From assembly GCF_044324785.1 (NCBI RefSeq), contig NZ_CP172127.1: a stretch of DNA of 64,000 bases; one strand, given 5' to 3'. The position numbers and the translations under genes are program-made. Below, one piece after another: positions 2,152-42,203 of the stretch. The stretch's first letter is position 1. Each line of letters begins with the position of its first letter. The notes under the pieces are model-generated. The model was not told where the DNA came from. It made no database searches and saw nothing but the letters and a program-made list of their open reading frames with translations. The stretch is from Escherichia coli. Its GTDB lineage: Bacteria; Pseudomonadota; Gammaproteobacteria; Enterobacterales; Enterobacteriaceae.

Positions 2152-2252
2152 ATATGCCCGATGCGCAAGCTTATCGGGCCTACAAGGGAAGCGTAACTTT
2201 GAATTCGCACTCACTGTAGGTTGGATAAGGCGTTTACGCCGCATCCAACATG
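2152..2252. repeat. REP/BIME element, two inverted REP copies
   Basis: gcccgatgcgcaagcttatcgggcctac and gtaggttggataaggcgtttacgccgcatccaac both resemble the REP consensus, in the convergent yggR/yqgF gap. Confidence 0.7.
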
Positions 2253-2297
2253 AAACAATGAGCACATTGTCAGAAATCTGTGCGCTAGTAAATCGCC

Positions 2298-2714
2298 TTA
2301 ATATCCCTGCTCGAAATAGCTTTCGAGAATAATAACCGCAGAGGCAGAGTCGACTTTGCCTTTGTTGAGCGCCCGATAGCCGCCCTGTTCAAACAGACCG
2401 GAACGTGCCTCCACGGTGCTAAGTCGCTCGTCATGGAGCTTTACTTCAACACCGAAACGACCATGAATACGGTTGGCAAATTTACGCGCTCTGGCGGTTA
2501 ACGGCTGTTCGGTGCCGTCCATATTCAGCGGCAAACCGACGATGATTTCGTCCGGCTGCCACTCTTTCAGTAAACGCTCGATAATGTTCCAGTCCGGCGT
2601 ACCGTCCTGCGCTTTAATTGCAGGCAAAGGGCGAGCGGTGCCGGTAATGCGTTGGCCGACCGCTACGCCAATGCTTTTGGTGCCGAAGTCGAAGGCGAGT
2701 AAGGTTCCACTCAT
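2298..2714 (-). CDS. ruvX: Holliday-junction resolvase-like protein RuvX (YqgF)
   Basis: Start at [20 protein letters not shown] (138 aa); overlaps yqgE stop. Confidence 0.92.
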
Positions 2715-3277
2715 CAGGCGTGTCCTGCCACACCAGGCATGGTGAGAATATCCACACCAATCAGTTTTGCCGCCTCGCGCCAGCGGTCGGCAATCGGCGT
2801 TTTGAACAGAATATTCAGATCTGCCGGGGCCGTTAGCCACGCGTTATCGAGAATTTCTTGTTCCAGTTGACCTTTCTCCCAGGAGGCATAACCCAGAGCC
2901 ACCAATACGTCAGACGGTTGTTTATCGGTGCCGAGCGTTTCCAGCACATCGCGGGAAGTGGTCATCACTGTGTTGTCTGAAATGCGAATGCTGGAAGCAA
3001 AATTGGAGGGCGGAGTATGCAAAATAAACCCGCGATCTTCAGCCAGCGGACCGCCGAGCATAACCGGTTTATCCAGACGGATTGATTCATCACGCGGCTC
3101 CGGCGTGATCTTCAGCTTTTCCAGAATCCCTTCAATTTTGAGATTTTCCAGCGGCTTGTTGACGATGATCCCCATTGCACCATTGGTATTATGTTCGCAA
3201 ATGTAGACCACGGAACGACGGAAAATCGGATCCTGGAGAGCAGGCATGGCAATAAGAAAGTGATGCTGTAAATTCAT
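2714..3277 (-). CDS. yqgE: YqgE/AlgH family protein
   Basis: Start at [12 protein letters not shown] (187 aa). Confidence 0.9.
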
Positions 3278-40749: not shown

Positions 40750-40898
40750 GCTGTAACGGTAAAGCCCTCACCGAAGCGAGGGCTTGAAGGAGAAGGGTTA
40801 TGATGCGACTTGTCATCATACTGATTGTACTGTTACTCATAAGTTTCCCAGCTTATTAACAGTCAGTCTCAGGGGAGGAGTCATCCTCCCTTACCCTT
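40750..40898 (-). ncRNA. sibC: antisense antitoxin sRNA SibC (ends approximate)
   Basis: Reverse-strand promoter-like TTGACA (40929-40934), 17-nt spacer, TAATTT (40906-40911), just outside the ibsC stop; Sib RNAs are fully antisense to ibs ORFs; ends inferred. Confidence 0.5.
40800..40859 (+). CDS. ibsC: type I toxin IbsC (19-aa hydrophobic peptide)
   Basis: ATG 40800; translation MMRLVIILIVLLLISFPAY; SD gaaggag upstream; in the serA-ygfA gap where K-12 has sibC/ibsC. Confidence 0.75.
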   Translation: MMRLVIILIVLLLISFPAY

Positions 40899-40959
40899 AC
40901 TCACTAAATTAGGTTAAAGAATCAACGATGTCAATCAGGGCGATGCAGGTGTGTCGCCC

Positions 40960-41508
40960 TTACCACTCCCAGACTTTCGACGGTGTAACCACCGCAGGAA
41001 GTGGGATATCCCACTCTTCAACGGGGAGTTTTTCCACCAACTGACAATCATGCGCATAACCCACCGGTTGCATTTGATAGCGCTGCCAGTTTTGTAAGGT
41101 CCGATCATAAAAACCACCGCCCATTCCCAGGCGCTGACCGTACTCATCAAAGGCGACCAGCGGTGTGATCAACACGTCTAATCGGGAAAGGGGTAGCACG
41201 TCACGCACATCCAGTTTTGGCTCATGGATCTTCAACCTGTTCATCACCAGTTCGCTTTGCGGATGGTAATTCAGGAACAGCAAATTACCGGCACTAAAGG
41301 GATGCAAAACTGGAAGATATACGCGCTTACCGGCGCGCCAGAGTTGTTCTATGAGTGGCTGGGTGTCGAGTTCGCCATCAAAAGAGAGGAATACAGCGAC
41401 CGTATGCGCCATCACCACTGGGGGATACGTCATCATCCGGGTAGCGGCTTGTTGACCCATTTCCTGCTGTTGTTCCGGCGTTAACGCACGACGACGTTGC
41501 CGAATCAT
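40960..41508 (-). CDS. ygfA: 5-formyltetrahydrofolate cyclo-ligase family protein
   Basis: Start at MIRQRRRALTPEQQQEMGQQAATRMM (182 aa); an upstream in-frame ATG at 41562 would give 200 aa. Confidence 0.85.
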   Translation of the reverse strand: MIRQRRRALTPEQQQEMGQQAATRMMTYPPVVMAHTVAVFLSFDGELDTQPLIEQLWRAGKRVYLPVLHPFSAGNLLFLNYHPQSELVMNRLKIHEPKLDVRDVLPLSRLDVLITPLVAFDEYGQRLGMGGGFYDRTLQNWQRYQMQPVGYAHDCQLVEKLPVEEWDIPLPAVVTPSKVWEW

Positions 41509-41580
41509 TTTGCGGATTTCTTGTCGGGATAATGTCAGTGGGAGTTCTGGTAGTTGCGTCATGGCTGGTGCCAGATAAGA

Positions 41581-41765
41581 AGGGAATCTCCGAGATGCCG
41601 CCGCAGGCTGTAACCCTTGAACCCTTGGTTCAAGGTGAATGTGTCGTCGCAGTTTTAAGGCTTCTCGGACGGACCGAGCATGCTCACCAACCGCGGAGCG
41701 CCACATTCTTGTGGTATGAAATATCGGCTCAGGGGACTGGCCCGCTTGCGAACATCTCAGAGAAA
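41581..41765 (-). ncRNA. ssrS: 6S RNA
   Basis: Reverse complement reads ATTTCTCTGAGATGTTCGCAAGCGGGCCAGTCCCCTGAGCCGATATTTCATACCACAAGAATGTGGCGCTCCGCGGTTGGTGAGCATGCTCGG...GGAGATTCCCT, which I recognise as E. coli 6S RNA. Confidence 0.9.
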
Positions 41766-41807
41766 TTTTGTCTTCACGGTTACTCTACCACAGTAAACCG
41801 AAAAGTG

Positions 41808-42203
<396 letters not shown>

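What the first reader, a model, noticed from the sequence alone, without database searches (positions are those of the whole stretch)
40960..41765. 6S RNA immediately upstream of ygfA on the same strand
The 6S RNA 3' end (about 41581) lies only about 20-70 nt from the candidate ygfA start codons (41562 or 41508), consistent with the known ssrS-ygfA co-transcription. Which ygfA start is used is ambiguous from sequence alone.
Basis: partly seen in the sequence, partly recalled or inferred. Interest (0 to 1): 0.25.

Follow-up and report, generated by a model that had tools for sequence, protein, structure and literature searches.

The report
E. coli 6S RNA–fau (ygfA) operon
This is the well-known E. 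coli gene for 6S RNA followed 20 bases later by the folate-recycling gene fau (ygfA) on the same strand; it is ordinary, and cross-species comparison indicates the first of the two candidate start codons is the real one.

Summary
Rfam's 6S model (RF00013) gives one full-length hit on the minus strand at 41766..41583 (139.8 bits against a 46.4 cut-off). It is 100% identical to E. coli K-12 ssrS. The downstream ORF, with its stop at 40960, is 5-formyltetrahydrofolate cyclo-ligase (fau/ygfA). Published work already describes the ssrS-ygfA dual-function transcript and Rho-dependent termination inside ygfA, so this is already known.

The start-codon ambiguity is real, and public annotations disagree. 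PGAP aa (ATG1) and the curated K-12 record aa (ATG2). Comparison of 65 distinct enterobacterial loci favours ATG1:
- ATG1 is present in 65/65 sequences; the ATG2 codon is ATG in only 16/65.
- The interval between them has no stop codons and only a 6-nt indel.
- The interval shows third-position variability typical of coding sequence.
- It encodes an invariant [RK]xx[IL]R motif.
- The curated family models and four solved homologues align from residues 12-14, upstream of ATG2.

Neither ATG has a Shine-Dalgarno sequence. No experimental start-site data could be retrieved. Interest is low.

The parts
41583..41766 (-). ssrS, the mature 6S RNA (184 nt by the Rfam and PGAP ends; the K-12 record annotates 183 nt, ending 1 nt earlier)
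   Evidence: RF00013 full-length hit at 139.8 bits. It is 100% identical to K-12 ssrS over 184 nt (L002). PGAP annotates an ssrS ncRNA at the same place in the identical strain XDL.
41723..41742 (-). 6S nucleotides 25-44, the template for product RNA (pRNA) synthesis
   Evidence: The sequence is GGCCAGTCCCCTGAGCCGAT, and its complement is AUCGGCUCAGGGGACUGGCC. That this is the published E. coli pRNA sequence is recalled from the literature, not tested here.
41782..41811 (-). Proximal promoter-like site (P1): ATGACA, 18-nt spacer with TG, then TAGAGT. The implied start is about 41775, roughly 9 nt before the mature 5' end.
   Evidence: Promoter scan. The hexamers are at least 90% conserved in 61 distinct enterobacterial upstream sequences. 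The published P1 position is recalled from Kim and Lee 2004. [quoted passage not shown]
41998..42026 (-). Distal promoter-like site (candidate P2) inside zapA: TTGCAA, 17-nt spacer, then TAGAGT. The implied start is about 41990, roughly 224 nt before the mature 5' end.
   Evidence: Read from the sequence. It scores 8 of 12, which is below the scan threshold. It lies in about 25 consecutive columns that are at least 90% conserved, third codon positions of zapA included. Assigning it to P2 is an inference from the recalled published position.
41808..42137 (-). zapA, the upstream gene on the same strand
   Evidence: ORF of 109 aa. Pfam ZapA PF05164 at 74.5 bits. Annotated as zapA.
41563..41582 (-). 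20-nt pyrimidine-rich spacer between the 6S 3' end and ATG1
   Evidence: The sequence is CTTCTTATCTGGCACCAGCC. In 62 loci the spacer is 14-24 nt, with lengths that do not preserve frame, and it is 74% pyrimidine. The first 8 nt are 92% pyrimidine with no G. There is no Shine-Dalgarno pairing: -1.5 kcal/mol against a background mean of -2.4.
41560..41562 (-). ATG1, the conserved and most likely start codon of fau (200-aa product)
   Evidence: ATG in 65/65 distinct enterobacterial sequences. PGAP uses this start. In four Pasteurellaceae loci the only usable in-frame ATG lies 12-15 nt after 6S.
41506..41508 (-). ATG2, the start annotated in K-12 (182-aa product); here most likely the internal Met19 codon
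   Evidence: This is the K-12 b2912 start. The codon is ATG in only 16/65 sequences and is otherwise CTG, TTA, CTA, GTT, ATC, CAC and others.
41503..41582 (-). C-rich, G-poor stretch: a candidate Rho loading (rut) region that overlaps the start of fau
   Evidence: C is 32.5% and G is 13.8%, giving C/G = 2.36. This is the most skewed segment of the gene; the later 100-nt bins give 0.79-1.41. Rho-dependent termination within ygfA is stated in PMC3299989. The exact termination site is not available here.
40960..41562 (-). fau (ygfA), 5-formyltetrahydrofolate cyclo-ligase: long form, 200 aa plus stop
   Evidence: PF01812 at 162.3 bits over profile positions 1-186. TIGR02727 at 179.1 bits over 1-182, and NF007661 at 444.6 bits. 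Solved homologues 1ydm, 2jcb, 1sou and 3hxt match. It differs from K-12 Fau at 3 residues.

Best explanation
This is the standard E. coli ssrS-fau (ygfA) dual-function transcription unit.

How it works. Transcription starts at two tandem promoters upstream of 6S: a proximal one about 9 nt before the mature 5' end, and a distal one inside zapA. It runs through the 184-nt 6S RNA and into fau. Most transcripts are stopped by Rho in the first ~100 nt after 6S, which is a C-rich, G-poor stretch. They are then trimmed to mature 6S by RNase E/G at the 5' end and by exonucleases at the 3' end. Mature 6S binds sigma-70 RNA polymerase as an open-promoter mimic and is released when the polymerase copies nucleotides ~44 to 25 into a short product RNA. 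Transcripts that escape Rho carry fau, whose product recycles the inhibitory by-product 5-formyltetrahydrofolate.

The start codon. Fau is most likely translated from ATG1 (41562), 20 nt after the 6S 3' end, without a Shine-Dalgarno sequence, giving a 200-aa protein. ATG2 (41508), the start in the K-12 annotation, is most likely just the codon for Met19.

Basis of each step. Shown here: the identity, ends and strand of 6S; the identity of fau; the conservation pattern that favours ATG1; the promoter-like sites; and the C/G skew. Taken from the literature: co-transcription, Rho termination, processing and 6S function. Inferred: ribosomes starting at ATG1 would cover the Rho loading region, so that translation of fau and 3'-end formation of 6S compete.
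For: 6S RNA:
- RF00013 full-length hit at 139.8 bits on the minus strand, the only 6S hit in the window.
- 100% identical to K-12 ssrS.

fau:
- PF01812, TIGR02727 and NF007661 all score far above their cut-offs.

Linkage:
- 6S lies directly upstream of fau in 65/65 enterobacterial loci, 14-24 nt away in 62 of them.
- The same holds in 4 Pasteurellaceae loci, at 12-15 nt.
- No promoter-like or terminator-like site lies between 6S and fau.
- Co-transcription, Rho termination within ygfA and two tandem promoters are stated in PMC2848244, PMC3299989 and PMC12152304.

ATG1 as the start:
- ATG1 is present in 65/65 sequences and ATG2 in 16/65.
- No sequence has a stop codon between them, and the interval is always 48 or 54 nt.
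- Column entropy by codon position in the interval is 0.64/0.41/1.15 bits, against 0.51/0.43/1.46 in undisputed coding sequence.
- [RK]xx[IL]Rx directly precedes the ATG2 codon in 65/65 sequences.
- The long form fills Pfam positions 1-186 and TIGR02727 positions 1-182. The short form starts at profile position 8 and loses about 8 bits in each.
- The N-termini of solved homologues align to residues 12-14 of the long form. R13 pairs with human K10 and Aquifex K3, and R17 pairs with an Arg in all four homologues.
- K-12 itself has ATG1 and the same 18 N-terminal residues.

Rho loading region:
- C/G = 2.36 in the first 80 nt after 6S.

Function of ygfA:
- The E. coli deletion mutant accumulates 5-formyltetrahydrofolate (PMC3223725).
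Against: - No experimental start-site evidence was retrieved. The held supplements of three initiation-site studies have no row for ygfA, fau or b2912.
- The curated K-12 record uses ATG2, and the curators may have had reasons not visible here.
- ATG1 has no Shine-Dalgarno sequence.
- In a thermodynamic fold of the precursor, the ATG1 leader is less open than the ATG2 leader: 0.43 against 0.71 mean unpaired probability, and the ATG1 codon itself is at 0.22.
- Conservation shows that the ancestral gene starts at ATG1. It does not rule out additional initiation at ATG2 in Escherichia, Salmonella and some Citrobacter and Pseudocitrobacter, where that ATG exists.
- The exact Rho termination site and the promoter positions could not be read from the primary papers, which are not held.
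Confidence: 0.85

Rival explanations
1. Fau starts only at ATG2 (41508), as in the curated K-12 annotation and the 182-aa product. The 74 nt after 6S would then be an untranslated leader.
For: K-12 b2912 is annotated this way. The leader of ATG2 is predicted to be more open than that of ATG1.
Against: - The ATG2 codon is not a start codon in 37/65 related sequences. It is ATG in 16 and CTG in 12; the rest are TTA, CTA, GTT, ATC, CAC and others.
- The supposed leader is kept in frame, has no stops, and varies mainly at third codon positions.
- It encodes an invariant basic motif that aligns with the first helix of solved homologues.
- The short form loses the first 7 positions of both family profiles.
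- ATG2 has no Shine-Dalgarno sequence either.
Confidence: 0.05
2. Both ATGs are used in E. coli. This would give a full-length 200-aa enzyme and a shorter 182-aa form that lacks the first part of helix 1.
For: Both are ATG codons in frame, and neither has a Shine-Dalgarno sequence that would give it clear priority. ATG2 is retained in all Escherichia sequences, in Salmonella and in some Citrobacter and Pseudocitrobacter sequences, and its leader is predicted to be open.
Against: Met at that position is lost in most genera with no sign of a compensating start, so a second isoform is not a conserved feature. No data on protein isoforms were found.
Confidence: 0.1
3. fau is expressed from a promoter of its own, and its adjacency to 6S is only positional.
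For: Three loci (L029, L036 and L049, of the Klebsiella/Enterobacter type) carry a 99-125 nt insert between 6S and fau. The inserts share TGTATTA(A/C)ACT, which resembles an extended -10 element. So a separate promoter may exist in some lineages.
Against: In this window only 20 nt separate 6S from ATG1, and no promoter-like site was found there. Co-transcription is reported for E. coli. The tight spacing is conserved from Enterobacteriaceae to Pasteurellaceae.
Confidence: 0.03

Closest known systems
E. coli K-12 ssrS-fau (ygfA) dual-function transcription unit (b2911-b2912)
   Same: The 6S sequence is identical over 184 nt. The gene order is the same (pepP, ygfB | zapA, ssrS, fau, sibC/ibsC | serA). 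The spacer and the 18 N-terminal codons are identical.
   Different: Fau has three amino-acid differences (R161H, Q163K, M164T in long-form numbering) and IbsC has one (P17S). The K-12 record annotates the shorter 182-aa Fau and a 183-nt 6S.
6S RNA family, Rfam RF00013
   Same: Full-length match to the consensus closing stem, central bubble and terminal stem, with only two non-standard pairs flagged.
   Different: Nothing notable; this sequence is the founding member of the family.
5-formyltetrahydrofolate cyclo-ligase (MTHFS) family: PF01812, TIGR02727; solved homologues 1ydm, 2jcb, 1sou, 3hxt
   Same: Full-length profile match and alignment to solved structures from residues 12-14 to about residue 197.
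   Different: About 11 extra, poorly conserved N-terminal residues (MTQLPELPLTL) precede the domain. No E. coli structure was found among solved chains.

Membership tests
6S RNA (RF00013) | Covariance-model score at or above the curated gathering score, over the full model | tested here: met
   139.8 bits against 46.4, model positions 1-187 of 187, minus strand.
6S RNA (RF00013) | Long, interrupted hairpin with a large central bubble (an open-promoter mimic) | tested here: met
   The cmscan alignment follows the consensus structure line, with two non-standard pairs flagged.
6S RNA (RF00013) | Binds sigma-70 RNA polymerase holoenzyme and serves as template for pRNA | not testable with these tools
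   The sequence is 100% identical to K-12 6S, for which this is published (PMC3299989, PMC1874619). The template region 41742..41723 is present.
ssrS-ygfA dual-function operon | 6S RNA gene directly upstream of a 5-formyltetrahydrofolate cyclo-ligase gene on the same strand | tested here: met
   6S at 41766..41583 and fau at 41562..40960, both on the minus strand. The same arrangement is found in 65 enterobacterial and 4 Pasteurellaceae loci.
ssrS-ygfA dual-function operon | No intrinsic terminator or promoter between the two genes | tested here: met
   The consensus scan finds none between 41582 and 41563. The only terminator-like site (41133..41118) is inside fau, and one site is below the count expected by chance. 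The scan is simple, so this is weak evidence.
ssrS-ygfA dual-function operon | A transcript that spans both genes | not testable with these tools
   Stated in the literature (PMC2848244; PMC3299989).
Rho-dependent terminator downstream of ssrS | C-rich, G-poor, weakly structured RNA upstream of the termination point | tested here: met
   C is 32.5% and G is 13.8% in 41582..41503, the strongest skew in the gene.
Rho-dependent terminator downstream of ssrS | Termination that depends on Rho (sensitive to bicyclomycin) | not testable with these tools
   Chae et al. 2011, as cited in PMC3299989. The primary paper is not held.
5-formyltetrahydrofolate cyclo-ligase (PF01812 / TIGR02727 / NF007661) | Profile score above the curated cut-off, over the full domain | tested here: met
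   PF01812 at 162.3 against 27, TIGR02727 at 179.1 against 84.9, NF007661 at 444.6 against 343.
5-formyltetrahydrofolate cyclo-ligase (PF01812 / TIGR02727 / NF007661) | ATP-dependent conversion of 5-formyl-THF to 5,10-methenyl-THF | not testable with these tools
Sib/Ibs type I toxin-antitoxin (RF00113), a neighbour and not part of the finding | Sib RNA model hit with a small hydrophobic Ibs ORF on the opposite strand | tested here: met
   136.5 bits against 56 at 40934..40784. The 19-aa ORF MMRLVIILIVLLLISFPAY lies at 40800..40859 on the plus strand. It is annotated ibsC.

The most novel reading that the evidence does not exclude
The most novel reading not excluded is a translation-gated switch. 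ATG1 has no Shine-Dalgarno sequence and is held at a conserved 12-24 nt from the 6S closing stem, inside the pyrimidine-rich, G-poor stretch that Rho would load on. A ribosome that initiates at ATG1 would block Rho and let the transcript continue into fau. Failure to initiate would expose the site and commit the transcript to becoming 6S RNA. The tight spacing would then be selected for, setting the 6S:Fau ratio according to translational capacity. A lesser variant is that Escherichia and Salmonella also make an 18-residue-shorter Fau from ATG2.
Probability: 0.25. Interest if true: 0.35.

Novelty: already known. Interest (0 to 1): 0.1.

Why it matters
It matters little for discovery. The ssrS-ygfA unit has been described since the 1980s, and its Rho-dependent termination has been known since 2011. 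The practical point concerns annotation. The reference K-12 record (b2912, 182 aa) and PGAP annotations of other E. coli strains (200 aa) disagree, and the comparative evidence here supports the 200-aa form. The short form lacks two invariant basic residues of the first helix. Anyone who expresses, tags or deletes fau, or who designs ssrS deletions meant not to disturb fau, should treat 41562 (20 nt after 6S) as the start of the coding sequence.

Tried and rejected
- Primary papers. Chae et al. 2011 (PMC3012964) and Lee et al. 2013 (PMC3887979) are not held. The exact Rho termination site and the promoter coordinates therefore rest on secondary citations and on recall.
- Start-site datasets. 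The retapamulin Ribo-seq preprint has no held supplements. The TRAINSPOTTER and INRI-seq supplements contain no ygfA, fau or b2912 rows. A full-text search for ygfA with 'start codon' and 'ribosome profiling' found nothing.
- ATP-contact residues. I tried to document the role of the human MTHFS residues that align with R13 and R17. The search matched Arg145 instead, so no functional claim about them is made beyond conservation.
- Shine-Dalgarno strength does not discriminate: both ATGs are weaker than the background.
- The 248-aa ORF from ATG 41706 was rejected because it runs through the 6S gene. The 108-aa plus-strand ORF at 41532..41858 was rejected because it is antisense to 6S; no family search was run on it.
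- The terminator-like hairpin at 41133..41118 was rejected as chance. It lies in the codons for the conserved RLGMGGGFY motif, and one site is below the count found in shuffled sequence.
- The Colwellia locus L062 has no 6S hit at gathering score within 1.2 kb upstream of its fau homologue, so linkage was not confirmed there.

Full report
**What is there**

The window is E. coli. The 1.6-kb segment around the finding occurs in 5425 of 5426 complete RefSeq E. coli genomes, and five strains match at 100% identity. On the minus strand the order is:
- zapA, 42137..41808
- 6S RNA, 41766..41583
- fau/ygfA, ORF ending at 40960
- the SibC small RNA, 40934..40784, with the tiny toxin gene ibsC opposite it

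serA follows on the plus strand.

The Rfam 6S model gives one full-length hit at 139.8 bits, against a gathering score of 46.4, on the minus strand. It is the only 6S hit in the 64-kb window, and it is 100% identical to K-12 ssrS. The two ATGs are exactly at 41562 and 41508, which is 20 and 74 nt after the 6S 3' end.

**What it is**

This is the textbook ssrS-ygfA arrangement. Open papers state three things:
- 6S RNA is transcribed together with ygfA, and the bicistronic arrangement is conserved in gamma-proteobacteria (PMC2848244; PMC4064990).
[quoted passage not shown] 2011).
- Transcription starts at two tandem promoters, and maturation uses RNase E/G and exonucleases (PMC12152304).

The sequence fits each of these:
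- An extended -10 promoter-like site (ATGACA-18-TGnTAGAGT, 41811..41782) would start transcription about 9 nt before the mature 5' end, and it is conserved across genera.
- A second site, TTGCAA-17-TAGAGT, lies inside zapA (42026..41998). It sits in about 25 near-invariant columns, third codon positions included, and would start about 224 nt upstream. That these match the published P1 and P2 positions is from my recollection of Kim and Lee 2004.
- No promoter-like or terminator-like site separates 6S from fau.
- The first 80 nt after 6S are the most C-rich and G-poor part of the gene (C/G = 2.36), as expected for a Rho loading region.

Fau matches PF01812, TIGR02727 and NF007661 far above their cut-offs. 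[quoted passage not shown]

**The start codon**

PGAP annotates 200 aa from ATG1 in the identical strain XDL. The curated K-12 record annotates 182 aa from ATG2. K-12 has ATG1 and the same 18 codons, so the disagreement is one of curation, not of sequence.

I fetched fau loci from one genome per species and aligned the segment from the 6S 3' end into fau in 65 distinct enterobacterial sequences. The results:
- ATG1 is present in 65/65 sequences.
- The ATG2 codon is ATG in 16/65. Elsewhere it is CTG (12), TTA (6), CTA (5), GTT (5), ATC, CTC, CAC and others.
- The interval between the two is always 48 or 54 nt and never contains a stop codon.
- Its column entropy by codon position is 0.64/0.41/1.15 bits. 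That is the coding pattern, and it compares with 0.51/0.43/1.46 in the next 30 codons.
- The 6S-to-ATG1 spacer takes lengths of 14, 17, 18, 19, 20, 21, 22, 23 or 24 nt, so the frame is not kept upstream of ATG1.
- The residues just before the ATG2 codon form an invariant [RK]xx[IL]Rx motif in 65/65 sequences.

The family models and solved structures agree with this. The Pfam and TIGR02727 profiles start at residue 13 of the long form. The short form begins at profile position 8 and scores about 8 bits less in each. Four solved homologues align from their own N-termini to residues 12-14 of the long form, with R17 matched by Arg in all four. In four Pasteurellaceae loci, 6S is followed 12-15 nt later by the only usable in-frame ATG, again upstream of the same helix.

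I conclude that ATG1 (41562) is the conserved start and that ATG2 most likely encodes Met19.

**Caveats**

- Neither ATG has a Shine-Dalgarno sequence.
- In a predicted fold of the precursor, the ATG2 leader is more open than the ATG1 leader, 0.71 against 0.43 unpaired.
- I could retrieve no experimental start-site data for this gene.
- Additional use of ATG2 in E. coli is not excluded.

**Mechanism, with shown and inferred steps kept apart**

- Shown here: the identity, ends and strand of 6S; the identity of fau; the linkage across 69 loci; the conservation pattern favouring ATG1; the promoter-like sites; the C/G skew.
- From the literature: co-transcription, Rho termination, processing, RNA polymerase binding by 6S, and Fau function.
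- Inferred: ATG1 lies inside the presumed Rho loading region, so ribosomes initiating there would hinder Rho. Fau translation and 6S 3'-end formation would then compete on each transcript. The conserved short, pyrimidine-rich spacer (74% pyrimidine; the first 8 nt have no G) is compatible with this but does not prove it.

**Verdict**

The feature is already known and of low interest. The one useful output is comparative support for the 200-aa Fau start, against the K-12 reference annotation.

Noticed in passing
window 40784..40934 (-) and 40800..40859 (+): A SibC antitoxin RNA (RF00113, 136.5 bits) lies directly downstream of fau, with the 19-aa toxin gene ibsC on the opposite strand. IbsC here ends in FPAY, whereas K-12 has FSAY.
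   Followed up: partly
L029 1099..1200, L036 1076..1200, L049 55..153: In Klebsiella spallanzanii, Enterobacter sp. 10-1 and an uncultured Klebsiella, the 6S-to-fau spacer is 99-125 nt instead of 14-24 nt. The inserts share TGTATTA(A/C)ACT, which resembles an extended -10 element and may be a dedicated fau promoter in that lineage.
   Followed up: no
window 41980..42030 (-), inside zapA: About 25 consecutive columns are at least 90% conserved across 61 enterobacterial sequences, third codon positions included. They surround a TTGCAA-17-TAGAGT promoter-like site, so there is more constraint here than zapA coding alone would explain. This fits a distal ssrS promoter embedded in zapA.
   Followed up: partly
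L002 (K-12 NC_000913.3) 2188..2790, against window 40960..41562: The K-12 reference annotates fau as 182 aa and 6S as 183 nt. PGAP annotates 200 aa and 184 nt for the same sequence in other strains. Fau in this window differs from K-12 at R161H, Q163K and M164T, three changes clustered within 4 residues.
   Followed up: yes
window 41118..41133 (-): This is the only terminator-like hairpin in the region (CGCCTGGGAATGGGCG followed by a T-run). It lies inside fau, in the codons for the conserved RLGMGGGFY motif, and one site is below the count expected by chance, so it is probably coincidental.
   Followed up: partly
L062 (Colwellia demingiae): No 6S hit at gathering score was found within 1.2 kb upstream of the fau homologue, unlike the Enterobacteriaceae and Pasteurellaceae loci.
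   Followed up: no
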